From positions 1 to 30,782 of the forward strand of contig JAYTIW010000037.1 of the NCBI GenBank assembly GCA_043731575.1: 30,782 nt of DNA. Direction: 5' to 3'. The notes below the pieces were generated by a model. It saw only the letters and a list, made by a program, of their open reading frames with translations, ran no database searches and was not told where the DNA came from. The position numbers and the translations under genes are program-made. Shown here one piece after another: positions 7,296 through 30,782 of the stretch. The stretch's first letter is position 1. Every line of letters starts with the position of its first letter. The stretch is from Minisyncoccota bacterium. Its GTDB lineage: Bacteria > Patescibacteriota > Minisyncoccia > Phycocordibacterales > UBA5272.

Positions 7296-7305
7296 CTACA
7301 CTTGT

Positions 7306-8613: not shown

Positions 8614-8643
8614 CATTAGTGATATACTTAATAAAATAAGATT

Positions 8644-9450: not shown

Positions 9451-9499
9451 TCGAATTTACCCTTATGAATAAGGGTTATTCTTGTGATACACTATAAAG

Positions 9500-10876: not shown

Positions 10877-10885
10877 CGAAAAGTC

Positions 10886-11893
10886 ATGTATTTTACTATT
10901 TTAGACCTGTTTCGCTTTTTCTCTGCAATCGGTGTATTTTTCCACCACACGTTTCTTTTCCATTATGGGAGATTAGGGATATATCTCTTTTTTATGATTT
11001 CAGGGTTTGTGATTTATTTTAGCCTTAATAAAGGTGTTAAAGAATACATTGTTGGGAGATTTGTAAGGTTGTATCCAACGTTTTGGATATGTGCGACTAT
11101 TACCTTTTTAGTAACACTTGTATATGGTAACGCTATAGCAATTAAACATTACCTTATCGGGTTACTTATGTTTAATAGTGGGCACATGGAGACTATGATC
11201 GATGGGTCGTACTGGACGCTTACCTTTGAGCTTCTTTTTTATTTTTATATCGGTGTTTTTGTTTGGCTTTTTACAACAAAGAGACTGGCGTGGTTCTACA
11301 CTTCTTGGCTCCTCATTTCTTTTTTTAGTTTTTATTTTGCAGTAGATCAGGTATTTTTCTTTAAGTTATTAAGTGTTCGTTTTGCGCCATATTTTATTTT
11401 TGGAGGAGTACTTGCTCTTATCGTCGACAAATGGGACACGGTTAAATTGAAAAGTAAAATTTTGTACTCAACAGTTCTTCTAGGCTCTTGGCTTATGCCT
11501 ATCTACATCAGTAGCAAGCTACAAGATCAAAAAGAAACCATTACCAACTTTACAGGAAGCTTTGATAAAGGAGAACTTGTTATTGTAGAGGTACTTTTCA
11601 CAGTTATGTTCCTCGGTGTATTCCTTTCTCGTTTTGATTTTGCAACTAATAAATGTTTTGCGAAGATCGCTCTTACTTTAGGGAGTATTACATACCCACT
11701 CTACCTCCTTCATTGGAAAATAGGGGACACTATTATTTCTCATTACAATAATGCATATGGTGTTATCACGAATTTTTCGATAGCCGTAGCTGTACTTATC
11801 ATCATAGTCTCATATTTTATTTCCATTTACGATATACCACTTCGAAAATCAATCAAGAAAAAAATAGAAAAATTTCTATCACACCCCACGTAA
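10886..11893 (+). CDS. Acyltransferase family 3 (membrane O-acyltransferase, OafA-like)
   Basis: [48 protein letters not shown]; multiple TM helices. Confidence 0.9.
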
Positions 11894-12829
11894 ATTATTA
11901 CTCTTTAACTCTTCAAGAAATGATTCATAAGTCAGTTCTAATCCTTTGGTTACTTCAGTCATATGTGTCCATCCTAAATCATGTATCTTTTCAACATCAA
12001 GTAACTTTCGTGGAGTGCCGTCAGGTTTAGTCGTGTCAAAGATTATTTCTCCAGTATAACCAACAATATTTTTAATTATATAAGCCACTTCTTTTATTGT
12101 TATATCAGTTCCAGTACCTACGTTGACTATTTCTCGATCATTATAGTTTTCCATAAGGAAGAGAGAAGCATTTGCTAGATCGTCCACATGAAGAAACTCT
12201 CGCATAGGAGATCCTGTTCCCCATAGAGTGACTGTCGGTAATCCTTGAATCTTTGCCTCGTGGAATTTACGTATTATCGCAGGAATGACGTGGGAATTTT
12301 GTAAGTCATAGTTATCCTTTGGTCCGTAGAGATTTGTCGGCATAAGACTGATAAAGTTGTCACCATATTGATCTCTGTAAGCTTGGCATAATTTTATTCC
12401 GGCTATTTTTGCTATAGCATAAAATTCATTACTTGGCTCAAGAGCTCCTTGAAGGAGTTCATCTTCTTTTATAGGCTGTTTTGCGAATTTTGGATAAATA
12501 CAAGAAGAGCCTAAAAATAAAAGTTTCTTAACCTTGTTTAGATGTGCTGCATGAATAATATTTGTTTCTATTATTAAATTTTCATAAATAAAATCTGCTC
12601 GGAAGGTGTTGTTTGCCATAATTCCACCAACTTTAGCAGCTGCAAGGAACACATATTCTGGTTGCTCATCTTTAAAAAAAGAATTGACGGATGCTTGATT
12701 CGTCAGATCCACTTCCTCTCTTCTTTTTGTAATAATTTTGTTAAATCCAAGTTTTTTTAGATTTCTTAAAATAGCATCACCGACCATACCACGATGACCT
12801 GCTATAAATATTTTTGAGTCTTTTCGCAT
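11879..12829 (-). CDS. fcl: GDP-L-fucose synthase
   Basis: [65 protein letters not shown]. Confidence 0.96.
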
Positions 12830-12832
12830 TGT

Positions 12833-13900
12833 TTATTTTTTAAACCCCCCATTAAGTATATGCTTTTCTCTTCTTGCATGTTCAAGGTCATGTTCCATCA
12901 TCTCAGTTACTATTTCCATTATAGAAGTTTTCGGTTTCCATTGTAGTTCTTTTGCAGCTTTTAAAGCATCCCCAAGTAGCGTTTCAACCTCTGCTGGCCT
13001 ATAATAAACAGGATCAATTCGTACACGGATCGTATTTGTTTTAATTTCAACCCCTATCTCATCTAAGCCTTGTCCTTCCCAACGTAAGTCGCGGTTAACA
13101 TGATTAAATGCCCATCCAACAAACTCTCGCACACTGTATTGTTCACCGGTAGAGATTACGAAGTCATCTGGGATGTCATGTTGCATTATTTTCCACATTG
13201 CTTCAACGTAGTCCCTTGCATGTCCCCAATCACGTTTAGCATCCAAGTTACCAAGGTAGAGCACATCCTCTAATTCGTGATGAATACGTGAGACTGCTCT
13301 GGTTATTTTTTTTGTCACAAATGTCTCCCCTCGGTAAGGGCTCTCATGGTTAAAAAGAATTCCATTTGTTGCGAACATTCCGTAACTCTCTCTGTAGTTT
13401 TTTGTTATCCAGTAGCCAAATAATTTAGCAACACCATATGGACTTCGTGGATGAAAAGGAGTTAACTCATGTTGAGGTATCTCACGTACTTGTCCAAACA
13501 TTTCTGATGATGAGGCTTGGTAGAATTTAGTTGTTTTTGTTAGTCCACAAATACGAATAGCTTCAAGTAATCTTAATACTCCCATAGCATCAACATCTGC
13601 CGTATATTCTGGATTTTCAAATGATACTTTTACGTGAGATTGTGCACCAAGGTTATAAATTTCATCTGGTTTAACTTTAGCGATGATACTAATCAAGCTT
13701 GATGTGTCAGTAAGGTCACCAAAGTGAAGAAAAAATTTCGTATCCCCATGTTTATCTTTATAGATATCATCAATACGAGCAGTGTTAAAGAGAGATGTGC
13801 GGCGTTTAATGCCGTGCACTTCATAGCCTTTATCGAGTAAAAAACGAGCAAGATACGCCCCATCTTGCCCGGTTATTCCTGTAATAAGAGCTTTTTTCAT
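12833..13900 (-). CDS. gmd: GDP-mannose 4,6-dehydratase
   Basis: [68 protein letters not shown]. Confidence 0.98.
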
Positions 13901-14081
13901 TGTTCACCTATAGTAGCACGATTTAAAGCGTTGTTCAAAAATGGGGTTATTACGACCATAGACTCAAATCTGATGATGTACTTGGTGTGTTAAATTTTAA
14001 CCCACCTTATCGTTTTTGTAGGTGCTACTGAACTAAAAAAGAAAAGTTTTTTCTGTACAGAAAACCTTTCTGCGTATGTTT

Positions 14082-15131
14082 TTACTTTTTTGAAAAATAG
14101 AAATACTTAAGATTTTCTAAAAATTTAATTTTTTTAAATGGTCTATATAGTGTTGCCAGTGTCTTAAGAATACGAGATTGTCTTTTTGTGTATTTCTCTA
14201 TAAGACGTTCATGATTTCTGTAGAGTGTTGCCCTGACAGGGTTAATGGTATTTCTTTTTGCTTTCGCTAAAGGCTGATCAATTATCTTGTTGAGAAAGGT
14301 CTCAAATCCTTCCTTAACTTCTTTAAAGTCATAAGTAGCAGCAGCCACTGGTTCGTGTAGTGTTTTTAAGTAGAGTTCGTCGTTAGAGTCCAGTTCTTTG
14401 ACTCTTTCTAAGACTTGATCGAATGATTCGTAGTCATGACAGTTGATAAATCTTTTAGTATTAAATTCTCGAGAGATGTGTGGGTTGCCCCAGTAAATAG
14501 GGATAGTATTTGCTGCGATACCATTTACCAGTTTTTCTGTCGTGTATCCTGAGCGTGAAGAGTTTTCAAAAGCGATTGTGAACTTATGCTTCATCTCGTA
14601 CTCTAATTTATTTTTTACTTTTGCTCCACCTATGTTGTTAAGATATGACCCAGCGGCATTTACTTTTTTATAAGTACTCAGTGTTTCAAAAATAAGTTTA
14701 CGTTCGATATCACTTCTGTAATTTGAGTAAATAAAACTACAAAATTCTGTTTTAGTAGCAAGATTTTCTCTAGTAAAGGTTGTGTTTTTCTGTAAGTAGT
14801 TCTCACCAGCTAGGAGTAGTTCCTCCTTGGTGTAAAATACAGCCACTAGATAGAGAGGCATTCTGTAATACCTATCTTCGAATGTTAGATAATCAAAACC
14901 TACAGCATAGTCACAAAGGTTAAAGTTAGGGGAGGTATTTTCACCTGTATAAAAAATTTTAATACAGTCGTAGCGATGATGGTCAAAAGTTGACTCGTTA
15001 TAAAAAAGATACTCAGGGTCTTCTGAAAGCTCTACAGTATAAGATTTTTGAAGTGTGCTGAGAATAAAGTAACTATATGCAAAGGTATCAGTTACGCTGT
15101 GTCCACAAATTTTTACTCGTATTGTTTTCAT
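14082..15131 (-). CDS. Alpha-1,3/4-fucosyltransferase family (GT10, FucT-like)
   Basis: FYTGEN, DYAVGFD, FCSFIYSN, AGSYLNNIG, KFTIAFENS..GYTTEKL, IPIYWG. Confidence 0.9.
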   Translation of the reverse strand: MKTIRVKICGHSVTDTFAYSYFILSTLQKSYTVELSEDPEYLFYNESTFDHHRYDCIKIFYTGENTSPNFNLCDYAVGFDYLTFEDRYYRMPLYLVAVFYTKEELLLAGENYLQKNTTFTRENLATKTEFCSFIYSNYRSDIERKLIFETLSTYKKVNAAGSYLNNIGGAKVKNKLEYEMKHKFTIAFENSSRSGYTTEKLVNGIAANTIPIYWGNPHISREFNTKRFINCHDYESFDQVLERVKELDSNDELYLKTLHEPVAAATYDFKEVKEGFETFLNKIIDQPLAKAKRNTINPVRATLYRNHERLIEKYTKRQSRILKTLATLYRPFKKIKFLENLKYFYFSKK

Positions 15132-18040: not shown

Positions 18041-18961
18041 TTATCGTAGCTTACGGTAGTATATAATGACATTGCCTAATTTAGCCTGCACAAGTTTTCT
18101 CTTAATAATTTCTTTTAGGGTGAACCAGTATTCACGAGTATAGAAGTAGGCTCGTAGTCTACTATTTGAGATAGGGAGATTAAACGTATCCCTAACCCAC
18201 ATAACAATTTCTAATGTTGATTGTATTCTCCCTTGTATGGTTTCTAATCCTGCAAAAACATCCCACCTTATATTAGAAGAGCGAGTTTTAACTATAGGTT
18301 CTGCGATCATTATAAATGGAGCATCTTTAAAAATACTTAGATTTACGTACGTATGAATAGCCAGGGTATCAAAAAACTTCTCTTTATCAGGGAATTCTAC
18401 CCAAGGGTCTCTTTTGAATAATTGTGTGGAAAGTCCTACAAATATACCAACCAAGTTAGTATATTTTTCTATCGAGTGTATGTATTTTGACAAGCTCATG
18501 TACTTCTCATCGTGGGGAATACGAAGATTAGGGTGGGGGAGAACTTTATTTTTGAGCGAAGCGTCGTACCCCCAACAATTAAGACCAAAGAAAGGAATAT
18601 CTTTCGAGTCTTTAATTTTTGCAAGAACAGTAGGGACAGCATTCTCAAATAATGCATCGTCATCCCCAAGACTGAGACAGTAGATGCCGGTACTTTTTTC
18701 AATAAGCTTTGCAAAACTTCTGTCAAAACCAAGATTTTTTTCATTTCTAAAATAAACGATAGCCAAGTTAGGGTATCTTCTTTGGTAAGATTGCACAATC
18801 TCCGTTGTTGTGTCTGTGCTTGCGTTGTCTGCAAGCACAACCTCAACTTCATTTTTAAGAAGCTCTGTATTTAGTTGAGACACAATGCTATCAAGACATT
18901 CAGGTAAGTATGCAGCTCTGTTATATGTTGGAATACAAATGCTTAAGAGAGTTCTACTCAT
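18041..18961 (-). CDS. Glycosyltransferase family 2 (WbaV/abequosyltransferase-like)
   Basis: LSICIPTYNRAAYL, DNASTD, NLGFDRSF, LGDDD. The ATG at 18961 is preferred over the listed 18988. Confidence 0.85.
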   Translation of the reverse strand: MSRTLLSICIPTYNRAAYLPECLDSIVSQLNTELLKNEVEVVLADNASTDTTTEIVQSYQRRYPNLAIVYFRNEKNLGFDRSFAKLIEKSTGIYCLSLGDDDALFENAVPTVLAKIKDSKDIPFFGLNCWGYDASLKNKVLPHPNLRIPHDEKYMSLSKYIHSIEKYTNLVGIFVGLSTQLFKRDPWVEFPDKEKFFDTLAIHTYVNLSIFKDAPFIMIAEPIVKTRSSNIRWDVFAGLETIQGRIQSTLEIVMWVRDTFNLPISNSRLRAYFYTREYWFTLKEIIKRKLVQAKLGNVIIYYRKLR

Positions 18962-19289
18962 GTTTTTGTGCGATTTGAATGATGTCATTTTTTACTTCTA
19001 AAAATAGATCGACACTATATTTTTTGTTCTTGAGTTAAAAGCCCAACAGAAAGAATCCTTGTAAGCCTTATTTATTGAGATGTTCAAAAACATCTTGTAC
19101 GTGTGGTATTGTAAGTACTTTTTTAGTGTTTTCATTATAGTAAGACTAATGGTACTATATTTTTTCAAAAATAAATAGACTGACTGTGCAGGTATAGTGC
19201 CCTATACCAACTAGAAATGGTACACTATCTTTCATTAGATTGTTGCTCACAATACTATCAGTCAATCATCTTACATACTATTACAACAT

Positions 19290-20187: not shown

Positions 20188-21564
20188 TTAGATTTTAAGA
20201 ACCTTTATAACCATTGTTCTTGTTTGTTTAAATAAAAAGAGAGAAAAGAAAGGCACTGTGTATGAAACAAGTGTTGCAAATGCTGCACCAGAAATTCCAT
20301 AAATAGGAATAAGGTATATATTTAGTACTATGTTTGTAATCATACCAAGGAATGCAGCTATCGAGATATTCTTAGTTGCATTTTCTACAACTAATATTTG
20401 TTGTGCAAATGAGTTAAGTGATGCCCCAACAGTGCTCCATGCACAGATATAGAGAGCAGGAAGAGCTCCTAAGAATGCTGTGCCAAAAATAATAAAAAGT
20501 AGATACTTAGCAAGCAATGTTAGGCTAAGAGCTACAACAATAGATATACCAAGTATGGTAAGAAGAAGTTTTTTTGTCCTCTTGTAATAAAGCTCTTCAG
20601 AATTTTTTTTCGCATTTACAATTGCAGGCAAGAGGGCAGTAAGTATAAGTTGAGGTATAAAATATGATAGCTCAGAAATTCTTACAGCAGAATCATAAAG
20701 TCCTACAGCTTCTGCCCCAATCATATTTTTTAACATTACTTGGTCAATCCTTGAATAGATTAAAAAAAATGCTGACGCAAAAATAAGAGGAAAGGAATCC
20801 TTAAGAATAAGAATAACTCTTTCTTTTTTAACACTAAGCATACGAAGATCCTTATAAACCTTTGCTTTTAGATAGAGGTATCCTAACGAGTACAGTATTG
20901 GTTCTAGTAGCACAATTCCAGCAAGATAAATAACTCCTTGGTCAAAGTAAATTGTTATTATTTTTAAAATATTTAAAATAATAACAATGCAAAGAAGTAG
21001 GATTGAAGGATACTTTGATTTTGCTTCTGCTTGGAACTCGTATCCAAGTAGTTGGAAAGCCCCAAAAAAATTAGACATACTAATTATAAAAATAAGAAGT
21101 AGTGAAACATCTTTAGAAGACAGAAGGAAGGCTGTTACTGTGGTGACAACAATGGTTACAAGAGAGGCGAGTAAGCGAAGCACGACAGCGCTTCCGAGAA
21201 GTTCGTTTCTTTTCTCAGGATATTTAATGAGATCCCTATGCAGGATTTGGTCTATACCGAGGTATGCAATAAAAGAAAAGAGACTTACAAAACTAATCGC
21301 ATAACTTAGCTCTCCGTAGTTTGCTGGGCCAAGGTTTCTTGCTATATATGCAGTTGCAAAAAAAGTAATTGCCATACTCCCAATTCTTGCAAAAAACATC
21401 CAACTCATATTTTTTGAATGTTTTTGGAATCCAGGTTGTCTAAACTTTTCTTGAATGTAGAGAATAAAATCTCTGTATATTTCCATCATAATGACGTGGT
21501 GTATATTTTTTATTTTCAAAGCAAGAGCTTCTTTTGTGGAAGTTCCTTCAAAATGTTGATCCAA
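20188..21564 (-). CDS. wzx: Polysaccharide flippase (Wzx/MATE-like)
   Basis: Multi-TM protein; ARNLGPANYG, RIDQVMLKNM, VGLYDSAVR, NIVLNIYLIPIYGISGAAFATL. The start may be ATG 21489. Confidence 0.9.
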   Translation of the reverse strand: MDQHFEGTSTKEALALKIKNIHHVIMMEIYRDFILYIQEKFRQPGFQKHSKNMSWMFFARIGSMAITFFATAYIARNLGPANYGELSYAISFVSLFSFIAYLGIDQILHRDLIKYPEKRNELLGSAVVLRLLASLVTIVVTTVTAFLLSSKDVSLLLIFIISMSNFFGAFQLLGYEFQAEAKSKYPSILLLCIVIILNILKIITIYFDQGVIYLAGIVLLEPILYSLGYLYLKAKVYKDLRMLSVKKERVILILKDSFPLIFASAFFLIYSRIDQVMLKNMIGAEAVGLYDSAVRISELSYFIPQLILTALLPAIVNAKKNSEELYYKRTKKLLLTILGISIVVALSLTLLAKYLLFIIFGTAFLGALPALYICAWSTVGASLNSFAQQILVVENATKNISIAAFLGMITNIVLNIYLIPIYGISGAAFATLVSYTVPFFSLFLFKQTRTMVIKVLKI

Positions 21565-21583: not shown

Positions 21584-22804
21584 TTAGTATTTTGCTAGGA
21601 ACTCATCAATTTTATTTTGTACGTATGTAATTTGAGTATCGTCTAGTCCATGGTGACACGCAAGAACGAAAGCGCTTTTCATAATAGTATCTGTATTAGG
21701 GAAGGCGACACTTATTTTTCTACTTTCAATTTTCTTAAAACCTGGTTGTTTAAGAATGTTGCCTGCAAAAACAGGACGAGTTTGGATATTGTTGTCTTCT
21801 AAGAACGTAACTATTTCAAGACGTGTGAAAGGGGCTTTTGGTTTAATAATAATAGGAAAGGCAAGCCATGCTGTCTCTGTATTGGGTGTCTGAGTTGGTA
21901 GGATGAAGTATGTATCTTTTGTCCCTATATATTTTGTAAGATTTTCAAAGTTCCGCTTTCTCTTTTCTAAGAAACCAGGGAGTCTTTTCATTTGAGCAAG
22001 AGCAAAAGCTGAAGAAATTTCAAGAGGGAGGAAGTTATAGCCAACTTCACTGAAGATAAATTTATTGTCGTAGGGGATGCCTCCTAGTTTAAAGTTGAAG
22101 CGATTTTTAAGTAGTTCTGAGTTAGCTTTTTCCCCATAGAGAGATGATTGTCTGCCCCAACCACGAAGGACTTTAAGTCTTGCTTCCCATTTTTCATCAT
22201 TAACCATAATCATACCTCCTCCTCCTGCACCATTTATAATATGTGATCCGTAGAAGCTAGTTACTGAAATATCAGAGTGAAGACCAGTAGGTTTACCTTC
22301 GAATTTACCGCCCAAAGTATCACAAGAGTCTTCGATAAAATATAGTTTATGCTTTTTTGCAATCTCTGAGAGTGCTTTCATATTAGGAATGTTACCCATA
22401 AGAGAAGGAATCATAAGAGCTCTAGTCTTCTTCGTGACAGCACTCTTTACTTGGTCTAAGTTCACAAGATATGTTGTTGGGTCAACATCGACAAAAACAG
22501 GAATAAGACCTTTTTGTACAATTGGAGAGACGACAGTTGCAAAAGTGAGAGCGGGAGTGATAACTTCAGAACCTTTTGGAAGATTGAGTAATTCAAAAGC
22601 AAGAAGATTGGCTGAAGATCCAGAGTTAACCATAACTCCATGCTTCTTACCAAACATTTTAGCAATCTTAGATTCGAATTCTATTGTTTTATCACCCAGA
22701 GAAGTGTTTCCCTTAAGAACCTCTACAACAGCATCAATTTCTTCTTGTCCATGAACCGAAAAACCATAAGGGACTCTCAGTTTTTTTTCTGTTGCTTTAG
22801 CCAT
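21584..22804 (-). CDS. DegT/DnrJ-family PLP/PMP enzyme, RfbH(DdhC)/ColD-like NDP-4-keto-6-deoxyhexose 3-dehydrase with His in place of the catalytic Lys
   Basis: NSGSSANL, EDSCD, SFYGSH (His188, codon 22241-22243), RGWGR, GYN, QTRPVFAGN. Confidence 0.8.
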   Translation of the reverse strand: MAKATEKKLRVPYGFSVHGQEEIDAVVEVLKGNTSLGDKTIEFESKIAKMFGKKHGVMVNSGSSANLLAFELLNLPKGSEVITPALTFATVVSPIVQKGLIPVFVDVDPTTYLVNLDQVKSAVTKKTRALMIPSLMGNIPNMKALSEIAKKHKLYFIEDSCDTLGGKFEGKPTGLHSDISVTSFYGSHIINGAGGGGMIMVNDEKWEARLKVLRGWGRQSSLYGEKANSELLKNRFNFKLGGIPYDNKFIFSEVGYNFLPLEISSAFALAQMKRLPGFLEKRKRNFENLTKYIGTKDTYFILPTQTPNTETAWLAFPIIIKPKAPFTRLEIVTFLEDNNIQTRPVFAGNILKQPGFKKIESRKISVAFPNTDTIMKSAFVLACHHGLDDTQITYVQNKIDEFLAKY

Positions 22805-23062: not shown

Positions 23063-24349
23063 ATGAATTTATCTTACCCAAAGCATCACCTTGTAAAAAC
23101 AGGATATATAGCTACCTGTCAGATATGTAATTCTGATAAGCTTCACACAATCATCGATCTTGGGCATCAGCCACTGTGTGATACATTGCTCACAGATGCG
23201 ACGTTAAATGAACCCGAGAAGACATACCCACTTCGTATGATCTGGTGTGAGAATTGTACGAGCTCTCAGATTGACTATTGTGTTGACGGCAAGGAAGTCT
23301 ATCATCCAGAATACCCGTATAAGAGTGGCGTGACTAAAGAGCTTGTTGAATATCAAGTTAAGATCGCGGAAGGGCTCATTAAGAAATATGATTTGAAGCC
23401 AAACGATCTTGTAATTGATGTCGGATCAAATGATGGAACACTTCTCTCTGGATTTAAAGGAACTGGTATTAAAACTGTAGGAATTGAGCCAACTAACATT
23501 GCTAAGATTGCTAATGCTAATGGGGTTGAGACGGTGCAGGCATTTTTCGATATTAAGACTTCAGAGACAGTGAAAGCTAAGTACGGGGAGGTAGCACTCA
23601 TTGTAACCACTAACACTTTTGCACATATGCAAGGTCTTGGTGAATTCATTATGGGGGCACATAACCTCCTTAAGGAGGGAGGAAAGTTCGTTTCTGAGAC
23701 ACATTATCTTTTGAATGTTATTGAAGGAGGGCAGTTCGATACTGTGTATCACGAACACTTGCGAACATACTCACTTAAAGGCCTCGTTACACTTTTTGAT
23801 CAATATGACTTCACTGTTACTGATGTTGAACGAGGCGACAGATACGGAGGGAACATTCGTGTTCACGTGACCAAAGGAAAAGGGCATTCAGTAGCACAAG
23901 CCGTTACTGACCTCCTAGCTCTTGAAGAAAAATCTGGCCTCGGTAAATTAGAGACATTTATGGCGTGCGCTGAAAGAGTGAAGGCTGCGAGATTCCATTT
24001 TATGGAGTTCCTCTTAAATACAAAGAAAGAAGGTAAGACTATCGTAGGAAACTCATGTCCTGGAAGAAGCTCCACACTTCTTAATTATTATGGAGTAGAT
24101 TCTGACCTTCTCCCATATTTAGCTGAACAGCCGACATCACTCAAGCTTGGTATGTATCTCCCAGGGAAACATATTCCAGTGGTGAACAATCAAAGACTTA
24201 TTGATGAACAGCCTGATTATGTTGTACTTCTTGCATGGCATTACGCTAAGCCAATTATGAAACAGTTGAAGGCTAGAGGGTTAAAGTCAGACTTTGTGCT
24301 TCCACTTCCAGATTTTGAAATCGTTAAAAATGAAGACGTAGAACTCTAA
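23063..24349 (+). CDS. NDP-hexose C3-methyltransferase (Zn-binding, SAM-dependent)
   Basis: CQIC...DLGHQP...C..C zinc site, DVGSNDGTLL, GIEP, FDTVYHEHLRTYS, LLAWHY. Confidence 0.9.
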   Translation: MNLSYPKHHLVKTGYIATCQICNSDKLHTIIDLGHQPLCDTLLTDATLNEPEKTYPLRMIWCENCTSSQIDYCVDGKEVYHPEYPYKSGVTKELVEYQVKIAEGLIKKYDLKPNDLVIDVGSNDGTLLSGFKGTGIKTVGIEPTNIAKIANANGVETVQAFFDIKTSETVKAKYGEVALIVTTNTFAHMQGLGEFIMGAHNLLKEGGKFVSETHYLLNVIEGGQFDTVYHEHLRTYSLKGLVTLFDQYDFTVTDVERGDRYGGNIRVHVTKGKGHSVAQAVTDLLALEEKSGLGKLETFMACAERVKAARFHFMEFLLNTKKEGKTIVGNSCPGRSSTLLNYYGVDSDLLPYLAEQPTSLKLGMYLPGKHIPVVNNQRLIDEQPDYVVLLAWHYAKPIMKQLKARGLKSDFVLPLPDFEIVKNEDVEL

Positions 24350-24350
24350 A

Positions 24351-25352
24351 ATGAAAGTAGGCATCATCGGAAGTGGATTTGGCCTCTACGGGTTATTACC
24401 GGCGTTTAATTCTATTCCTGATGTTAAGGTTGTAGCTATCTGTGGCAAAAAGTCTGAGCGCTTACTTACATACTGTAAAAGTATTCAGCTGACAAAGGTC
24501 TACACCAATTGGGAAGAAATGCTAGAGAAGGAGCAATTAGACGCGGTAGCTATTGCCGTTGTTCCAAGCGCTCAATACAAGATTGTGAAAGTTGCAATAA
24601 AAAAAGGAATTCACATATTTGCAGAAAAGCCACTCACTTCTAAATATGAAGAGGCGAAAGAATTACTTCTACTTGCGACAAAAAAGAAACTCACTACCAC
24701 TGTGGATTTCATCTTTCCAGAGATTGAAGAATGGCAGAAAGCAAAGGAGTTGCTTGATAAAAAAGTCTATGGCGAGTTGAAGCATATTTCTGTTAATTGG
24801 GATTTTTTGAGCTATGATATTAAGAACAAAGTGTCTTCATGGAAGACTGATCTGAAGGAGGGAGGGGGTGTATTATCATTTTATGGTTCACACAGTCTGT
24901 ATTATATAGAATATTTTGTGGGCACTGTTTCAAAACTCGCCACTACTTTTACATACTCCAAAGAAAGTAAGAATGGTGCCGAGACTGGAGTTGATATGGT
25001 TGTCACCTTTAAAAATAAAGCAACAGGGCAAGTTCATATTTCTTGTAATACTATTGGTCTACAGCAACATAAGTTAGTATTTTTTTGCGAGAAAGGAACA
25101 CTTGTTCTTGAGAGTGAAAGTGGTGTCACAGAGAATTTCACGTTAACTATTCATACTGAAAATAAGAAGAAAGTTATTGCAGTTAAAAAATTAAAAACAA
25201 AAAAGAACGAAGATGAGCGTGTGCGAACCGTCGAAAAATTGGTCACACGATTCGTAGAAGGTGTCAAGAAAAGAGTACAAGTAACTCCATCATTTAAAGA
25301 AGGTGTACGCGTACAAGAATTGATAGAGAAAATACGAAATAATAAAATTTAG
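24351..25352 (+). CDS. Gfo/Idh/MocA-family oxidoreductase (candidate NDP-sugar ketoreductase)
   Basis: VGIIGSGFG, AEKPL, GGGVL...GSH; starts 2 nt after the C-methyltransferase stop. Confidence 0.88.
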   Translation: MKVGIIGSGFGLYGLLPAFNSIPDVKVVAICGKKSERLLTYCKSIQLTKVYTNWEEMLEKEQLDAVAIAVVPSAQYKIVKVAIKKGIHIFAEKPLTSKYEEAKELLLLATKKKLTTTVDFIFPEIEEWQKAKELLDKKVYGELKHISVNWDFLSYDIKNKVSSWKTDLKEGGGVLSFYGSHSLYYIEYFVGTVSKLATTFTYSKESKNGAETGVDMVVTFKNKATGQVHISCNTIGLQQHKLVFFCEKGTLVLESESGVTENFTLTIHTENKKKVIAVKKLKTKKNEDERVRTVEKLVTRFVEGVKKRVQVTPSFKEGVRVQELIEKIRNNKI

Positions 25353-25421: not shown

Positions 25422-25493
25422 CAGAAACGGATATGTGTAGTTTTGTTAGCAGACGGTCCATCTGCGACTGCACATCGTACTAGGAGAAACCAA

Positions 25494-26210
25494 TTGACAG
25501 CTTATGTTCCCTCCGCGCTCTCATATGCGTGTGCAAGTTCGCTTGTCCTCGTTGACAAGCGACCCGCTGCAAATGCAGTGTTCATTGTTGACAAGCGACC
25601 CGCTGCAAATGCAGTGTTCATTCACGGCCCGCCCGCGGCTGACGACGGAATCGACACCGATCTTCTCAAGCTCGGTATCTCGATGGTCGCTTCCAAAGAG
25701 GCTGGTGCCCTGGTGATCAATGGGCTCACGGATGAAGCCTGCTGGCCAAACGGTCAGCGTCTGGCGTATCCAGGGTGCGATACCTGGGGCCGTAACCTCG
25801 TGGGGCTCGGGTATCCCGAGTATTTGAAGATTCCACCGTCGAAACACACGGCCGCCGAAAGCGACAACCTCATTCTTCTTGCCAAGGAAATGGGTTGGGG
25901 ATCTGTGGTGATCATGTCCTATCCGCACCACATTCTGCGTTGCATGTTGCAAATGGTCTTTTGTTTGGCACGGGCCAAGTCCGGTCTCAAGGTTTACACC
26001 AGGACTCTCTCGACTGTCAACTGGCAGCATGTTGCCGAGAAGGGTGTGCTCAACAACACGGCCTTCAGCGGCACTCTTGTCGACGCTCACATCCGTGAGG
26101 AATACGAGCGTTTGATCAAATACGCTGACCGTGACGGCACCGGCTACACCCCACACGCCACTTTGGAAGAACTCATCGAGTACTACCAGCAGCGTGATGC
26201 AGCTCAGTAG
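25494..26210 (+). CDS. YdcF/DUF218(ElyC/SanA)-like protein, GC-rich
   Basis: AGGAG (25482-25486) + TTG 25494, in frame with the listed ORF. HTAAESDNL...GWGSVVIMSYPHHILRC resembles the DUF218 T.EN...vlVTs..H..RA motif. Confidence 0.65.
   Translation: MTAYVPSALSYACASSLVLVDKRPAANAVFIVDKRPAANAVFIHGPPAADDGIDTDLLKLGISMVASKEAGALVINGLTDEACWPNGQRLAYPGCDTWGRNLVGLGYPEYLKIPPSKHTAAESDNLILLAKEMGWGSVVIMSYPHHILRCMLQMVFCLARAKSGLKVYTRTLSTVNWQHVAEKGVLNNTAFSGTLVDAHIREEYERLIKYADRDGTGYTPHATLEELIEYYQQRDAAQ
25551..25622 (+). repeat. Perfect 36-bp tandem duplication (VDKRPAANAVFI x2)
   Basis: GTTGACAAGCGACCCGCTGCAAATGCAGTGTTCATT at 25551-25586 and 25587-25622. Confidence 0.97.
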
Positions 26211-26325: not shown

Positions 26326-26883
26326 ATGTTGTCATCTGAAAACACCAACAATCCACTGACTGATACTGAGAAAGTGCAACTTGCAACTCTCTTGGAAAGA
26401 GCTGAGAGCTCAGACATTAAAGGAGGTATTTGGTATGAAATGGTGAAGAAGTTCATCACAGTTCCTATTGAGTTGTGTATTCTTGATACAGAGAGTAGAG
26501 TTTTTCTAGTGTACAGAAAAGATAGAGAATTCGATGGCTATCATTTACCGGGAACGGTAGTGAATGACTGGGAAACTGTGCATGATGCGCGTTTACGTCT
26601 TATACAAGGTGAAATTAAAAAAGATGCTGGCTTCGACATTTCATACCCAGAATCTATTGGATGGCTCGAAGTTAGGCGAGGCAATAGACCAGATTGTAAC
26701 CCAACCAGGCATACGGCGGCGCTTCTTCATATTACACATGTAAAAGGCGATGTTGTTCCGACAGAGGGAAGTGGGTTTTATTCTTTCGATGATATCCCAT
26801 TCAACACTCTTCCAGACCATGTATTCATGTTGCGATTTTTTAAAAGGTATTTAGAAAATGGAAAGCCAATTCTTGGAGAATAG
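26326..26883 (+). CDS. Nudix-fold hydrolase, GDP-mannose mannosyl hydrolase (Gmm/NudD)-like
   Basis: VPIELCILD...VFLVYR, YHLPGTVVNDWETVHDARLRLIQGE (degenerate Nudix box), RH. Confidence 0.65.
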   Translation: MLSSENTNNPLTDTEKVQLATLLERAESSDIKGGIWYEMVKKFITVPIELCILDTESRVFLVYRKDREFDGYHLPGTVVNDWETVHDARLRLIQGEIKKDAGFDISYPESIGWLEVRRGNRPDCNPTRHTAALLHITHVKGDVVPTEGSGFYSFDDIPFNTLPDHVFMLRFFKRYLENGKPILGE

Positions 26884-27060
26884 TCATTTTAAAGATATTT
26901 TTTCAATACAAATTTTTTTAAAAGTAAGCTTGTAAAAGGGGTTGATAAACGTTATAATTGTTGTAGTTTAAGAGTAAAGGGTTAGCTGTAGTACTTTGAG
27001 ATATTTCTCTAAAGCCTATAGATATCAATGATATTCTCAGTACTCCACACTCCTATTACA

Positions 27061-28131
27061 ATGAAAGAATTTTACAAGAATAAAAAAATACTAGTCACGG
27101 GACACACAGGCTTTAAGGGCGCATGGCTCTCTCAGATTCTTCTTAACTGGGGTGCGGAGGTCATCGGTATTTCACTTCGCCCGACAACAACACCGAACAT
27201 GTTTGGTGCAATTGGTCTTGAGAGTAGGGTTACTAATTACTTTACTGACATTGATGATCTGGAGGCAATGAAGAAAATTTTTAATAAAGAAAAGCCGGAG
27301 ATTGTTTTTCATCTTGCAGCACAGCCAATAGTGAGAAGGAGCTATGATGACCCGATAGAAACATTTTCTACTAACTGCATGGGTACGGCACACATTTTGG
27401 AAGCAATGAGAGAGATTAAGTCTGTTAAGTCAGCAGTTATCATCACAACTGATAAAGTATATGAGAACAAAGAGTGGCACTATCCATATCGTGAGAGTGA
27501 TCCGCTTGGGGGGTATGATCCATATAGTGCGAGTAAGGCTGCAGCTGACCTTATTACAAGTTCTTATATGCAATCATTTTTTAATCCAGAAGATTTCGGC
27601 ACTAAACATAATACTCTAGTAGCAATTGCGCGTGCAGGTAATGTTGTAGGAGGAGGTGACTGGGCAGACTACCGTCTCATACCGGATGTGATTCGTGCTG
27701 TCTACCATGAAGGGACTCATGTTGAAATTAGAAATCCCGATGCGATACGTCCATGGCAGCATGTCCTTGAGCCACTCTCTGGCTATCTTATGCTTGCGAA
27801 GCGTCTTTATGAAAAAGAAAAACATCTTTCCCAAGCATGGAACTTCGGTCCGCATAATGATAGTTTTGTGAGTGTGGAGAATCTTCTTACTGAGGCTAAA
27901 AAAGCTATGCCAAGTTTTGTGTATATTGTTAAACCTGATATGACTGGGAAACATGAGGCCGGATTACTTAAGCTTGATATCAATAAAACAGCACATCACC
28001 TTAGTTGGAAACCAAAGGTTAATTTTGAACAGACTATAGCTCTTACTTTTGATTGGTATAAAAATTATTATGAAAAAAAGGAGGATGTGGTAGTATTTAC
28101 TAACAAACAAATTAATGCCTTTTTTCGATAA
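27061..28131 (+). CDS. rfbG: CDP-glucose 4,6-dehydratase
   Basis: ILVTGHTGFKGAWL, HLAAQPIVRRSY, ITTDKVYEN, DPYSASKA, ARAGNVVGGGDW, RPWQHVLEPLSGY, WNFGP. ATG 27061 is preferred over the listed 27028. Confidence 0.96.
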   Translation: MKEFYKNKKILVTGHTGFKGAWLSQILLNWGAEVIGISLRPTTTPNMFGAIGLESRVTNYFTDIDDLEAMKKIFNKEKPEIVFHLAAQPIVRRSYDDPIETFSTNCMGTAHILEAMREIKSVKSAVIITTDKVYENKEWHYPYRESDPLGGYDPYSASKAAADLITSSYMQSFFNPEDFGTKHNTLVAIARAGNVVGGGDWADYRLIPDVIRAVYHEGTHVEIRNPDAIRPWQHVLEPLSGYLMLAKRLYEKEKHLSQAWNFGPHNDSFVSVENLLTEAKKAMPSFVYIVKPDMTGKHEAGLLKLDINKTAHHLSWKPKVNFEQTIALTFDWYKNYYEKKEDVVVFTNKQINAFFR

Positions 28132-28134
28132 CCT

Positions 28135-28905
28135 ATGAAAGTCGTACTACTAGCCGGGGGTCTTGGCACCAGATTAAATGAGGAAACAACCCTCAAACCA
28201 AAGCCAATGGTTGAAATTGGGGGTAAGCCAATACTTTGGCACATTATGAAGATATATTCTCATCACGGGTTCAATGAGTTTATTATTTGCCTTGGGTATA
28301 AGAGTCATTATATTAAGGATTGGTTTAATGACCACATGCTTCATAATAGTGATGTCACTTTTAATTTAGAAGATGGGACTACTACTATCCATAAAAGTAG
28401 TGCTGAGAAGTGGAAAGTAACCCTTGTTGATACTGGCTACCATACAATGACAGGTGGGAGAATAAAAAGAGTACAAGAATACATTGGGAACGAAACTTTT
28501 ATGGTTACTTATGGAGATGGTGTTGGCGATATCGACATTAGTGCTCTTGTTGCTTTTCATAAGAAGAATAAAGGGGTTGTTACGGTAACTGCTGTTACTC
28601 CAGAAGGACGATTTGGCACACTTACTATAGATCATAATTCTCATGTAACAGCTTTTAGTGAAAAGACAGATAATAAAGTAAAAATAAATGGAGGTTTCTT
28701 TGTGCTTGAGCCAGAGATATTTAAATACCTAGAAAATGATGAAACTATTTTCGAGAAAGGGCCACTTGAGAGACTTGCTAAAGATAATCAGCTTAAAGCA
28801 TATTCTCATGAAGGTTTCTGGAAGCCAATGGATACACTTAACGATAAGAATAAGTTGGAAGATATTTGGAACAAAGGTGGCGCACCTTGGAAAGTTTGGA
28901 TCTAG
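28135..28905 (+). CDS. rfbF: Glucose-1-phosphate cytidylyltransferase
   Basis: LAGGLGTRLNEET..KPKPMVEIGGKPILWHIMK, TMTGGRIKR, TYGDG, INGGFFV, FWKPMDT, APWKVW. Confidence 0.96.
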   Translation: MKVVLLAGGLGTRLNEETTLKPKPMVEIGGKPILWHIMKIYSHHGFNEFIICLGYKSHYIKDWFNDHMLHNSDVTFNLEDGTTTIHKSSAEKWKVTLVDTGYHTMTGGRIKRVQEYIGNETFMVTYGDGVGDIDISALVAFHKKNKGVVTVTAVTPEGRFGTLTIDHNSHVTAFSEKTDNKVKINGGFFVLEPEIFKYLENDETIFEKGPLERLAKDNQLKAYSHEGFWKPMDTLNDKNKLEDIWNKGGAPWKVWI

Positions 28906-28949
28906 GAAATTATGGATATAAGATCTTTATACAAAGAGTACTCTGTTAC

Positions 28950-30737
28950 ATGAAAAAACCAACCAACAAAAAATTGTGCTCAGAACTAATTGTTGACTTT
29001 TTGTCACAGAAGAAGATCACTCATGTTTTTGATTTAACAGGCGGGATGATTACATATCTTGAGGATGCTATTAGTAAAAAAAAGGGGATGACGTGTGTTC
29101 CTATGCATCATGAACAGGCGGCAGGATTCGCGGCTGAGGGGTATGCACGAAAGGGACAGAACTTCGGTGTAGCACTAGCAACGAGTGGACCAGGAGCAAC
29201 AAATCTCATTACCGCAATTGGAAGTTGTTACTTTGACTCTATTCCAACTATGTTTATTATCGGGCAGGTTCATACCGAAAACTTAAAGAAGAATGATCAA
29301 GTGCGCCAAGAAGGTTTTCAGGAGACAGATATTACAACCGTTGTAAAAACACTCACTAAGTATTCTGTGCTTGTAAAAGATGTGAATGCAGTTATATATG
29401 AACTTGAAAAAGCGTATTACATTATGACCTCTGGCCGTTTCGGATCTGTGCTTATCGATATTCCAATTAATCTTCAGCGTACTGAGATAGACGAAAAATC
29501 TGTGAAGCACTTTTTCGGTTCTCGTGAACACGTTCAAATGGAAAGTAACGTTAAGAAGACTTTCGGTAAGGAGGTGCAAAAAAGTAAAGTAACACAATTA
29601 GAAAAGTTACTTCGTAACGCAAAAGCACCATGTGTCATTATTGGGAATGGTGTGCGTCTTTCTAGTACAACAAAAGAGCTTTCAGAGTTCGTTACAAAAA
29701 ACAACCTCCCAGTCCTGACGTCATTACTTGGTATTGACTCGTATCCATTTTCAAAAAACCTCGTTGGGTACATTGGTTCAAATGGTAATCGAGATGCGAA
29801 TATTATTTTTGCAAATGCAGACCTTATTATTGCCTTAGGGACAAGATTGGATGTTCGTCAGATAGGTGCTGCAAAATTTTTTAACCCTACTGCAAAACTT
29901 GTGCATGTTGACATTGATAAAAGTTCCATTAATTATAGTCTTATGTCAGCACTTTCTTTTGAAACTGATCTTGTGCATTTTTTCAAAGCTACAAAGCATA
30001 TTGCAACAAAAAAGAAAGAAGCGTGGAGTTTGTTCATACGTAAAGTACAAGAAAAGTTCCCACGACTACACTCATATTCTGACAAAGAAGTTGACCCAAA
30101 TACATTTTTCCATGAACTCTCAGCCTTAACGCAAGCCAAGGCAACAATTATTGCTGATGTTGGTCAAAATCAAATGTGGTGCGCTCAATCGTGGAAGGTA
30201 AAAAAGAACCAGAGACTCCTTTTTTCTGGGGGGATGGGGGCAATGGGTTTTTCTTTACCTGCCGCTATTGGAGCATGGTATGCTGATCAATCTTCTTCAC
30301 TTATTGTTACGTGTGGAGACGGAGGGATACAGATTAATATTCAAGAATTAGAAACGGTGAGTAGGAACAAGATTCCACTTAAGTTATTTATTATTAATAA
30401 CAAATCTTTGGGGATGGTTAGGGAATTTCAAGATCTTTATTTTAATAAAAATTATCAGTCAACAGTAAAGGGATATGGACATCCTGACTTTAAGAAAATT
30501 GCGTATGCATATGATTTTGAGTATGTAAAAATTGGGTCAATTTCTAAAAGTGATCCTGTTATTAAAGAGATTGTACAAAATAAGAAACCAGTACTTATTG
30601 AAGTAGAGCTCTCAATAACAGCGACGCTTCAGCCAAAAGTCGTCTACGGACACGCACTCGATGACCAGTCGCCATATCTTAATGAAACACAGAAATCGGA
30701 ACTAGAAGAACTTAAAAGAAACCTAAAGGCGTCATAA
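28950..30737 (+). CDS. ThDP-dependent acetolactate-synthase-like enzyme (YerE-like sugar C-C carboligase candidate)
   Basis: HHEQAAGFAAEGYAR, ATSGPGATN, FQETD, DVGQNQMW, GGMGAMGFSLPAAIG, GDGG...NNKSLGMVREFQ. ATG 28950 is preferred over the listed 28866. Confidence 0.88.
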   Translation: MKKPTNKKLCSELIVDFLSQKKITHVFDLTGGMITYLEDAISKKKGMTCVPMHHEQAAGFAAEGYARKGQNFGVALATSGPGATNLITAIGSCYFDSIPTMFIIGQVHTENLKKNDQVRQEGFQETDITTVVKTLTKYSVLVKDVNAVIYELEKAYYIMTSGRFGSVLIDIPINLQRTEIDEKSVKHFFGSREHVQMESNVKKTFGKEVQKSKVTQLEKLLRNAKAPCVIIGNGVRLSSTTKELSEFVTKNNLPVLTSLLGIDSYPFSKNLVGYIGSNGNRDANIIFANADLIIALGTRLDVRQIGAAKFFNPTAKLVHVDIDKSSINYSLMSALSFETDLVHFFKATKHIATKKKEAWSLFIRKVQEKFPRLHSYSDKEVDPNTFFHELSALTQAKATIIADVGQNQMWCAQSWKVKKNQRLLFSGGMGAMGFSLPAAIGAWYADQSSSLIVTCGDGGIQINIQELETVSRNKIPLKLFIINNKSLGMVREFQDLYFNKNYQSTVKGYGHPDFKKIAYAYDFEYVKIGSISKSDPVIKEIVQNKKPVLIEVELSITATLQPKVVYGHALDDQSPYLNETQKSELEELKRNLKAS

Positions 30738-30751
30738 TTGTAAATATGTAC

Positions 30752-30782
30752 ATGAAAAAAATAGCAATTCTTGGGGCAACTG
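30752..30782 (+). CDS. 5' end of an NAD(P)-dependent epimerase/reductase (truncated by the window)
   Basis: MKKIAILGAT, a Rossmann glycine-rich start. Confidence 0.65.
   Translation, partial: MKKIAILGAT

What the first reader, a model, noticed from the sequence alone, without database searches (positions are those of the whole stretch)
27061..30782. rfbG-rfbF-ThDP enzyme-reductase: yersiniose-type C4-branched sugar pathway in a probable CPR genome
Seen: a complete acetolactate-synthase-like ThDP enzyme (catalytic Glu in HHEQ, GDGG...NN motif) directly after rfbG and rfbF and directly before an NAD(P)-binding gene. No ilvH/ilvC/ilvD is in the window. Established: YerE adds a pyruvate-derived two-carbon unit to C4 of CDP-4-keto-3,6-dideoxyglucose and YerF reduces it, giving yersiniose A; CPR genomes generally lack branched-chain amino-acid synthesis. 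Inference: this is a sugar carboligase. With the atypical 3-dehydrase, the C-methyltransferase and the WbaV-like GT2 (18041-18961) as candidate transferase, the product may be yersiniose or an undescribed branched octose, for example one retaining the 3-OH or carrying a 3-C-methyl.
Basis: partly seen in the sequence, partly recalled or inferred. Interest (0 to 1): 0.6.

Follow-up and report, generated by a model that had tools for sequence, protein, structure and literature searches.

The report
Sugar-branching thiamine enzyme in tiny bacterium
The gene that looks like acetolactate synthase in this ultra-small (CPR/Patescibacteria) bacterium is most likely a YerE-type enzyme that adds a short carbon branch to a CDP-activated deoxysugar for a surface glycan; this is a known kind of pathway in a new host, not amino-acid synthesis.

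Summary
The window ends with rfbG (27061-28131), rfbF (28135-28905), a complete 595-aa ThDP enzyme (28950-30737) and the first 10 codons of an NAD(P)-binding gene (30752-30782).

The rest of that gene is at the start of contig C50 of the same genome, which continues the glycan locus.

The ThDP enzyme is not a true acetolactate synthase:
- It scores below NCBI's AHAS cut-off.
- It has no small subunit next to it, and no ilvC, ilvD or ilvH was found in the 80%-complete genome.
- A maximum-likelihood tree separates it from true AHAS with 100/100 support. It falls in the group that holds the Yersinia proteins, the closest solved structure 5AHK and JanthE.
- It shares that group's signatures: a 6-residue insert, Phe in place of the AHAS Trp, and a C-terminal motif.

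The downstream SDR is 37% identical to the gene that occupies the yerF position in Yersinia-type clusters.

The same cassette, including the E1-like 3-dehydrase gene, recurs in at least 9 related CPR loci. It differs from the textbook pathway: no E3 reductase was found, and the E1-like enzyme lacks the iron-sulfur cysteines.

The donor (pyruvate), the acceptor and the final sugar are inferred, not shown.

This scan has already noted the same cassette in many other CPR genomes. I class it as a new member of a known kind, of moderate interest.

The parts
28950..30737 (+). YerE-like ThDP-dependent carboligase (595 aa)
   Evidence: It has the three ThDP domains. AHAS model TIGR00118 scores 443 bits, below the 538 cut-off. 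The best solved relative is 5AHK at 388.6 bits, against 280 or less for AHAS. The ML tree separates it from true AHAS at 100/100. It carries the YerE-group signatures.
30752..30782 (+). 5' end (10 codons, MKKIAILGAT) of the YerF-like extended SDR; the rest is contig C50 (L048) 2-877
   Evidence: C50 frame 2 continues the gene from about residue 18. It is 58% identical to the SDR that follows the ThDP gene in L002. It is 37% identical (E 3e-55) to the gene in the yerF position of L051. It matches PF01370 and keeps YxxxK as YAIAK.
28135..28905 (+). RfbF/DdhA, glucose-1-phosphate cytidylyltransferase
   Evidence: TIGR02623 393.8 bits, above the cut-off.
27061..28131 (+). RfbG/DdhB, CDP-glucose 4,6-dehydratase (ORF opens at 27028)
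   Evidence: TIGR02622 483.8 bits, above the cut-off.
21584..22804 (-). E1/RfbH-like PMP/PLP 3-dehydrase without the [2Fe-2S] cysteines
   Evidence: The best solved relative is E1 (3BCX) at 261 bits. His is kept at the E1 His220 position and Cys193 is kept, but Cys251, Cys253 and Cys261 are absent. All 8 CPR homologues aligned show the same, whereas YerE-like clusters of other phyla have the CxC...C motif.
26326..26883 (+). Divergent NUDIX-like protein, conserved just upstream of rfbG in many related loci
   Evidence: Weak PF00293 match, E 8e-4. NUDIX clusters are its nearest neighbours in the ESM Atlas. Homologues occupy the same position in L001, L002, L006, L010 and L011.
25443..26210 (+). 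Conserved protein of unknown function (255 aa)
   Evidence: No family match. Homologues occupy the same position in L003 and L007.
23063..24349 (+). TylC3-type sugar C-methyltransferase (accessory module)
   Evidence: PF08421, PF13489 and PF08484. Present in 5 of 10 related loci.
24351..25352 (+). GFO/IDH/MocA oxidoreductase paired with the C-methyltransferase
   Evidence: PF01408, PF22725 and PF02894. It co-occurs with the C-methyltransferase.
20188..21564 (-). Wzx-type flippase
   Evidence: PF01943. It is syntenic next to the E1-like gene in related loci.
18041..18988 (-). Generic GT2 glycosyltransferase, a candidate transferase only
   Evidence: PF00535. No specific NCBIfam model matched.

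Best explanation
The four co-directional genes rfbG, rfbF, the ThDP enzyme and the SDR, together with the divergently transcribed E1-like gene, form a cassette for a CDP-activated C4-acyl-branched deoxyhexose of the yersiniose type.

Proposed steps:
1. RfbF makes CDP-glucose. This assignment is shown by equivalog-level family matches.
2. RfbG makes CDP-4-keto-6-deoxyglucose. This assignment is shown the same way.
3. The E1-like enzyme removes the 3-hydroxyl without an iron-sulfur cluster or an E3 reductase, probably by a ColD-like PLP/glutamate cycle. This is inferred.
4. The ThDP enzyme decarboxylates a 2-keto acid, most likely pyruvate, and adds the resulting acyl anion to the C4 ketone. The product is a tertiary alcohol carrying an acetyl branch. 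This is inferred from homology to YerE.
5. The SDR reduces the branch ketone to a 1-hydroxyethyl group. This is inferred from homology to the gene in the yerF position.
6. The sugar is then built into a Wzx-flipped surface glycan. This is inferred.
For: (1) The enzyme fails the AHAS equivalog cut-off, 443 bits against 538.

(2) It is the only PF02775 protein in the genome. No ilvC, ilvH/N or ilvD was found.

(3) Control true AHAS genes (803, 811 and 653 bits) each have ilvN directly beside them. This gene is followed by an SDR.

(4) In the ML tree, true AHAS separate from all YerE-like rows at 100/100. The window sits in a CPR clade (100/100) inside the group that holds the Y. pseudotuberculosis and Y. 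enterocolitica proteins and P0152, which scores 704 bits to 5AHK.

(5) It shares four signatures with 5AHK and the Yersinia protein that AHAS lacks:
- a 6-residue insert, GQVxTxxLKxxxxxRQxGFQE;
- RLDxRQ in place of RFDDR;
- Phe in place of the AHAS Trp in GMVRxFQ;
- the C-terminal motif PKxxYGxxxDxQxP.

(6) Synteny: all 9 related CPR loci that extend past the ThDP gene (L002-L008, L010, L011) carry rfbG-rfbF-ThDP-SDR. All 8 of them that reach far enough upstream also carry the E1-like gene.

(7) The genome's own SDR is 37% identical over 299 aa (E 3e-55) to the gene directly after the YerE orthologue in Yersinia-type clusters. Those clusters run E3-rfbF-rfbG-E1-ThDP-SDR.

(8) No pyruvate-aldolase family that could supply longer hydroxy-keto-acid donors was found in the genome. 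No such gene lies in the window or in C50.

(9) A transketolase shows that the cell uses ThDP anyway.
Against: - No enzyme of this CPR clade has been assayed.
- Identity to the Yersinia protein is only 37%, little above the 33-35% to true AHAS. The case therefore rests on the tree, the indels and the context.
- The position of the CPR clade inside the YerE-like group is unresolved (support 81/79).
- Donor preference is known to differ among YerE-like enzymes: ErwE rejects pyruvate and JanthE is broad (PMC9306805, PMC12247030).
- The E1-like enzyme lacks the iron-sulfur site, and no E3 was found in the genome. So 3-deoxygenation, and with it the acceptor, is inferred.
- A second Fcl-like SDR is also conserved nearby. 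It could use the E1-like product for a separate 3,6-dideoxyhexose.
- The genome is only about 80% complete.
Confidence: 0.72

Rival explanations
1. The enzyme class and acceptor are the same, but the donor is a longer or functionalised 2-keto acid, as for ErwE, MyGE or JanthE. The product would then carry a C3-C7 side chain rather than the two-carbon branch of yersiniose.
For: Donor range varies widely within the YerE-like group, and ErwE rejects pyruvate (PMC9306805, PMC12247030). A Pectobacterium protein (P0380) sits in the same tight clade as the Yersinia proteins, so phylogeny does not fix the donor. Earlier notes of this scan on related cassettes proposed long chains.
Against: No HMGL-like or HpcH/HpaI aldolase and no other keto-acid-forming gene was found in the window, in C50 or in the genome. 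The enzyme is closer to 5AHK (388.6 bits) than to JanthE 8RPH (243.7 bits). A 0.6-0.8 Mb genome has few keto acids other than pyruvate, although a host could supply them.
Confidence: 0.13
2. The carboligase acts on a different 4-keto acceptor. This could be CDP-4-keto-6-deoxyglucose with the 3-OH retained, or a C-methylated intermediate made by the neighbouring C-methyltransferase. In this reading the E1-like enzyme and the second SDR make a separate 3,6-dideoxyhexose.
For: The E1-like enzyme is atypical and lies in the other, divergent operon. An Fcl-like SDR is conserved downstream. In L008 and L010 an RmlC-like epimerase and a reductase sit next to the E1-like gene. A C-methyltransferase/GFO module lies between the two operons in this window.
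Against: The E1-like gene accompanies the ThDP gene in every related locus that reaches far enough upstream. In the Yersinia-type clusters E1 sits directly before the ThDP gene. The C-methyltransferase module is present in only 5 of 10 loci, and sister ThDP genes differ in having it: L002 lacks it and L003 has it. The ThDP signature motifs do not differ between the two kinds of locus.
Confidence: 0.1
3. It is a true acetolactate or acetohydroxyacid synthase, for branched-chain amino acids or acetoin, that merely happens to lie next to sugar genes.
For: Automatic pipelines name its homologues 'acetolactate synthase large subunit'. Its best NCBIfam match is the AHAS model. Some sampled Patescibacteria genomes do carry enzymes with the AHAS signature motifs.
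Against: It scores below the AHAS cut-off. The tree separates it from AHAS at 100/100. The AHAS Trp is replaced and the YerE-type insert is present. It has no ilvN neighbour, unlike the control AHAS genes. No ilvC, ilvD or ilvH was found in the genome. Its synteny with sugar genes is conserved.
Confidence: 0.02

Closest known systems
Yersiniose A pathway of Yersinia pseudotuberculosis O:6 (ddhD-ddhA-ddhB-ddhC-yerE-yerF; Chen, Guo and Liu 1998, as cited in PMC9306805 and PMC12247030)
   Same: It has homologues of ddhA (rfbF), ddhB (rfbG), ddhC (the E1-like gene), yerE (37% identity to the Y. pseudotuberculosis protein P0332) and the gene in the yerF position (37%). The ThDP gene is directly followed by the SDR.
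   Different: No ddhD/E3 was found in the locus or the genome. The E1-like enzyme lacks 3 of the 4 iron-sulfur cysteines. The order of rfbG and rfbF is reversed, and the E1-like gene is divergently transcribed with the wzx and GT genes. The host is a CPR bacterium, for which no lipopolysaccharide has been shown (general knowledge). Extra C-methyltransferase/GFO and NUDIX-like genes are present.
PpYerE of Pseudomonas protegens. I recall that its structure is PDB 5AHK, deposited as 'acetolactate synthase II large subunit'; the paper library did not confirm the code.
   Same: It is the best solved relative: 388.6 bits, aligned over residues 10-575 including the C-terminal motif. It shares the insert, the Phe for Trp, RxDVRQ and MHHEQ. 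If a 20-residue tag is assumed, chain residue 499 equals native Val479, the residue mutated in PpYerE (PMC12247030). The window has Val at that position.
   Different: The two are far diverged (window to the related P0152, 39%). The physiological role of PpYerE is itself not demonstrated.
ErwE/ErwF (erwiniose, Pectobacterium atrosepticum), MyGE, and JanthE (PDB 8RPH)
   Same: They belong to the same YerE-like subclass of decarboxylase-type ThDP enzymes that add acyl groups to ketones. ErwE is likewise followed by a reductase (PMC9306805).
   Different: Those enzymes use longer or hydroxylated donors, and the erw cluster carries an aldolase/dehydrogenase pair to supply them. No such genes are found here. 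JanthE scores only 243.7 bits.
Biosynthetic acetohydroxyacid synthase large subunit (IlvB/IlvI/IlvG)
   Same: It has the same three-domain fold family, the catalytic Glu and the GDG...NN ThDP motif, at 33-35% identity.
   Different: It scores below the equivalog cut-off. It lies on the other side of a 100/100 branch. It has no small subunit and no ilv pathway. The Trp that selects 2-ketobutyrate is replaced by Phe, and there is an extra 6-residue insert.

Membership tests
YerE-like ThDP lyases (decarboxylase superfamily) | Three-domain ThDP enzyme with a catalytic Glu and a GDG-X24-27-NN motif | tested here: met
   PF02776, PF00205 and PF02775. Glu55 lies in MHHEQ. G456-D-G is followed by 24 residues and then N483-N484.
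YerE-like ThDP lyases (decarboxylase superfamily) | Groups with characterised YerE-type proteins rather than with AHAS | tested here: met
   ML tree of 45 rows: AHAS separate from the rest at 100/100. The window lies in the part that holds the Yersinia proteins and the 5AHK proxy P0152. PDB scores are 388.6 bits for 5AHK against 280 or less for AHAS. The identity of P0332 with the published YerE is inferred from organism and length, not checked by accession.
YerE-like ThDP lyases (decarboxylase superfamily) | Encoded in a deoxy-keto-sugar gene cluster and followed by a reductase | tested here: met
   rfbG-rfbF-ThDP-SDR occurs here and in 9 related loci.
YerE-like ThDP lyases (decarboxylase superfamily) | Carboligation of a 2-keto acid to the ketone of a CDP-4-keto sugar; bound FAD | not testable with these tools
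   This needs an enzyme assay. FAD-binding residues were not examined.
Yersiniose A pathway (ddhDABC-yerEF) | DdhA and DdhB (CDP-glucose synthesis and 4,6-dehydration) | tested here: met
   TIGR02623 and TIGR02622, both above their cut-offs.
Yersiniose A pathway (ddhDABC-yerEF) | DdhC/E1 with the [2Fe-2S] motif C-X57-C-X1-C-X7-C (the motif is recalled from the E1 literature; the positions were read from 3BCX) | tested here: not met
   His is kept at position 220 and Cys193 is kept. Cys251, Cys253 and Cys261 are absent in the window and in the 8 CPR homologues aligned. RfbH model NF011936 scores 363.6 bits, below the 423 cut-off.
Yersiniose A pathway (ddhDABC-yerEF) | DdhD/E3 reductase (Fer2 + FAD_binding_6 + NAD_binding_1) | tested here: not met
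   No PF00175 match in the own genome, which is 79.8% complete. No gene of E3 size or position stood out in the ORF lists of the related CPR loci, though not every flank ORF was scanned against Pfam. E3 lies directly upstream of rfbF in Yersinia-type loci L050, L051 and L063.
Yersiniose A pathway (ddhDABC-yerEF) | YerF-type reductase directly after yerE | tested here: met
   The SDR split between the window end and C50 is 37% identical (E 3e-55) to the gene after the YerE orthologue in L051. About 33 Yersinia-type loci have this SDR type in that position. The published YerF sequence itself was not available.
Biosynthetic AHAS large subunit | Reaches the equivalog score, pairs with a small subunit, and ilvC and ilvD are present | tested here: not met
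   443 bits against a cut-off of 538. No ilvN/H, ilvC or ilvD was found. Control AHAS genes have an adjacent ilvN.

The most novel reading that the evidence does not exclude
In genomes such as this one, which carry the C-methyltransferase/GFO module between the two operons, the carboligase may act on a C-methylated or 3-hydroxy-retaining CDP-4-keto sugar. That would give a doubly branched octose that has not been described, made without any iron-sulfur or E3 step.
Probability: 0.1. Interest if true: 0.6.

Novelty: new member of a known kind. Interest (0 to 1): 0.35.

Why it matters
- It corrects a recurrent mis-annotation. Pipelines label this clade 'acetolactate synthase large subunit', which would wrongly suggest branched-chain amino-acid synthesis in a CPR genome.
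- It shows that a bacterium with a genome well under 1 Mb (628 kb assembled at about 80% completeness) spends about 40 kb on an elaborate, strain-variable surface glycan. That glycan locus includes fucose genes, methyltransferases and probably a C-branched deoxysugar. This bears on how episymbiotic cells are recognised by hosts and phages.
- The CPR clade is an untested branch of YerE-like carboligases, which are sought as biocatalysts for chiral tertiary alcohols. It comes with an E3-free, iron-sulfur-free route to the keto-sugar acceptor.

Tried and rejected
Context came from the search for related loci and the genome search instead.
[quoted passage not shown] 2024, ref. 70 of PMC12247030) is not held. 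I could not check whether it already covers CPR.
- The code 5AHK occurs in no held paper. Its identity with PpYerE rests on my memory plus the Val479 numbering match.
- I tried to reach gammaproteobacterial genomes through L009. This failed: that 'Gammaproteobacteria' MAG has class peers of 0.7-1.3 Mb, so it looks CPR-like. Yersinia-type loci were obtained from metagenome contigs instead.
- No thiamine pyrophosphokinase was found in the genome, so the source of ThDP is open.
- Paper searches for CPR together with dideoxyhexose or branched sugars found nothing relevant.
- No RNA holder was listed for the stretch.
- The promoter and terminator scan was close to the shuffled background and is not used as evidence.
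- The true-AHAS reading was considered and rejected (see the rival explanations).
- The 'WbaV-like' label for the GT2 was not supported by any specific model.


Full report
**What is there.** The window is the whole of contig C37 of a 627,694-bp assembly in 93 contigs, 79.8% complete. Its last 3.7 kb hold four co-directional genes.
- ORF 27028-28131 is CDP-glucose 4,6-dehydratase: TIGR02622 483.8 bits against a cut-off of 278. Its homologues of 355-356 aa point to a start at 27061.
- 28135-28905 is glucose-1-phosphate cytidylyltransferase: TIGR02623 393.8 bits against a cut-off of 300.
- 28950-30737 is a 595-aa ThDP enzyme with the three Pfam domains of the decarboxylase family.
- An ORF starting at 30752 reads MKKIAILGAT and is cut by the contig end.

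In the ThDP enzyme the catalytic Glu55 lies in MHHEQ. The ThDP motif is G456-D-G, 24 residues, then N483-N484.

**What lies beyond the window.** I took the SDR genes that follow the ThDP gene in related loci and searched the genome with them by tblastn. They hit the first 877 bases of contig C50.
- C50 reads on from about residue 18 of the same protein: VREFFLENKNYSLFLFSRS..., 58% identical to the L002 SDR.
- C37 and C50 are therefore neighbours across a gap of about 7 codons.
- The SDR matches PF01370 (Epimerase family) and keeps the catalytic YxxxK as YAIAK.
- C50 continues the glycan locus with an Fcl-like SDR, a Gmm-like NUDIX, a GT2, an FkbM methyltransferase, a DXD glycosyltransferase, a DUF268 methyltransferase and a 738-aa Wzy_C/O-antigen-ligase-like protein with TPR repeats.

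Upstream, the window also holds GDP-fucose genes (manC, gmd, fcl), GT10, GT11, GT-D and GT2 transferases, Wzx, an E1-like gene and a C-methyltransferase/GFO pair. Altogether about 40 kb is devoted to one glycan.

**It is not an acetolactate synthase.**
- The AHAS equivalog model TIGR00118 scores 443 bits, below its cut-off of 538.
- The gene is the only PF02775 protein in the genome.
- ilvC, ilvH/N and ilvD are not found, with the caveat that about a fifth of the genome is missing.
- As a control, I looked for true AHAS genes in the genomes of more distant hits. They score 803, 811 and 653 bits, and each has ilvN directly beside it.
- In an IQ-TREE analysis of 45 proteins, nine AHAS-type rows separate from all other rows with 100/100 support. 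Three of the nine were scored above the AHAS cut-off. The other six were assigned by the AHAS signature motifs.
- The window falls in a clade of CPR sequences (100/100). That clade lies in an unresolved group (81/79) with a tight clade holding proteins named from Yersinia pseudotuberculosis, Y. enterocolitica and Pectobacterium, plus P0152.
- P0152 scores 704 bits to PDB chain 5AHK.
- The window protein itself scores 388.6 bits to 5AHK, 280 or less to any AHAS structure, and 243.7 to JanthE 8RPH. The 8RPH code is confirmed in PMC12188165.

From memory, 5AHK is PpYerE. I could not confirm the code in the library. A 20-residue tag would make chain Val499 equal to native Val479, which is the residue mutated in PpYerE according to PMC12247030.

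**Signatures.** Against 180 homologues, the YerE-like rows including the window share four features:
- a 6-residue insert, GQVxTxxLKxxxxxRQxGFQE;
- RLDxRQ;
- Phe in GMVRxFQ;
- a C-terminal motif, PKxxYGxxxDxQxP.

The AHAS rows instead have GQVxxxxIGxDAFQE, RFDDR, Trp in GMVRQWQ and a different C-terminus. That Trp is the AHAS residue known to select 2-ketobutyrate as acceptor (established knowledge of AHAS).

**Conserved context.** Eleven loci from CPR-type MAGs encode orthologues at 56-72% identity.
- All nine that extend past the ThDP gene carry rfbG-rfbF-ThDP followed within a few bases by an SDR of 284-313 aa.
- All eight that reach far enough upstream have the E1-like gene divergently transcribed with wzx.
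- Around relatives of the Y. pseudotuberculosis protein, metagenome loci show the published order E3-rfbF-rfbG-E1-ThDP-SDR. E3 there carries Fer2, FAD_binding_6 and NAD_binding_1.
- The SDR in that yerF position is 34-40% identical to the CPR SDRs, and 37% over 299 aa (E 3e-55) to this genome's own.

The ThDP gene and the SDR are thus homologous as a pair to yerE and yerF.

**How the CPR version differs.**
- The E1-like protein keeps the His that marks dehydrases (E1 His220) and keeps Cys193. It lacks Cys251, Cys253 and Cys261 of the [2Fe-2S] site.
- All eight CPR homologues aligned are the same.
- In contrast, 55 of 56 E1 genes in the Yersinia-type loci carry the cysteines, as do those of Bacillota and Gastranaerophilales clusters.
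- No E3-type reductase is found in the genome.

A ColD-like, reductase-free 3-deoxygenation would give the same CDP-4-keto-3,6-dideoxyglucose. That step is inference.

**Donor and acceptor.** These are inferred, not shown. Pyruvate is the simplest donor:
- YpYerE uses it (PMC9306805, PMC12247030).
- The erwiniose cluster encodes an aldolase/dehydrogenase pair to supply its longer donor. No HMGL-like or HpcH/HpaI aldolase is found in this genome or locus.

Donor range does vary within the family, however.

The C-methyltransferase/GFO module is present in only 5 of 10 loci. Sister ThDP genes differ in having it: L002 lacks it and L003 has it. The ThDP motifs do not differ between the two kinds of locus. 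I therefore read the module as an optional or separate branch from the shared CDP-4-keto intermediate.

A conserved Fcl-like SDR leaves open that the E1-like product also feeds a plain 3,6-dideoxyhexose. So does the RmlC-like epimerase plus reductase found in L008 and L010.

**Distribution.**
- About 95 clusters at 90% identity have 48% or more identity to the window protein. The few that carry a name are mostly titled Patescibacteria, Parcubacteria or Paceibacterota.
- In an even sample of 400 genomes of the phylum, none has an orthologue above 37% identity.
- The same-genus and same-family genomes (both 100% complete) and three same-order genomes lack both the ThDP gene and the CDP-glucose dehydratase.

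The cassette is thus a patchy, variable island, as glycan loci usually are. The stretch is held by sediment metagenomes of one study.

**Novelty.** YerE-like enzymes and their clusters are an established family, with more than 200 predicted from gene-cluster similarity according to PMC12247030. I found no held paper that places them in CPR. This scan has already noted the same cassette in many other CPR genomes. Those notes are not independent evidence, but they show that the find is recurrent. I class it as a new member of a known kind. The iron-sulfur-free, E3-free feeding step is the less ordinary part and is the subject of a separate finding on this window.

Noticed in passing
L048 (own genome contig C50) 1-10224: C50 continues the window after a gap of about 20 nt. 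It carries the rest of the YerF-like SDR, an Fcl-like SDR (907-1932, -), a Gmm-like NUDIX, a GT2, an FkbM methyltransferase, a DXD glycosyltransferase, a DUF268 methyltransferase and a 738-aa Wzy_C/O-antigen-ligase-like protein with TPR (7793-10009). The last could be a polymerase, a ligase or a protein O-glycosyltransferase.
   Followed up: partly
L039-L042, L044, L046, L047 (Patescibacteria genomes): Seven of the eleven best ThDP hits in the 400-genome phylum sample carry the true-AHAS signatures: no insert, RFDDR and Trp in GMVRQWQ. Some CPR genomes may therefore encode real acetohydroxyacid synthases. Whether ilvN or ilvC is adjacent was not checked.
   Followed up: no
L009 / G005: The MAG titled 'uncultured Gammaproteobacteria bacterium' has an 0.8-Mb genome, and its GTDB class peers are 0.7-1.3 Mb. 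The NCBI label is probably wrong and the MAG is CPR-like.
   Followed up: partly
L013 (Gastranaerophilales) 6080-14568; L085 and L088: Some clusters hold two or three paralogous YerE-like ThDP genes side by side. L013 has three. In L085 and L088 a 610-aa second copy directly follows the YerE orthologue. This hints at sugars with more than one ThDP-installed branch, or at alternative donors.
   Followed up: no
L008 5240-6679 (-) and L010 2359-3793 (-): An RmlC-type 3,5-epimerase and an SDR reductase sit between wzx and the E1-like gene. This resembles an ascarylose-type finish for a plain 3,6-dideoxyhexose alongside the branched sugar.
   Followed up: partly
window 26326-26883 and 25443-26210: A divergent NUDIX-like protein and a 255-aa protein with no family match take turns, or both occur, in the slot just upstream of rfbG across related loci. 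Their role in the CDP-sugar pathway is unknown.
   Followed up: partly
window 5295-8613: A TraG/TrwB-like coupling-protein ATPase (666 aa) is followed by a protein with lamin-tail and PKD domains. Both lie just upstream of the glycan locus.
   Followed up: no
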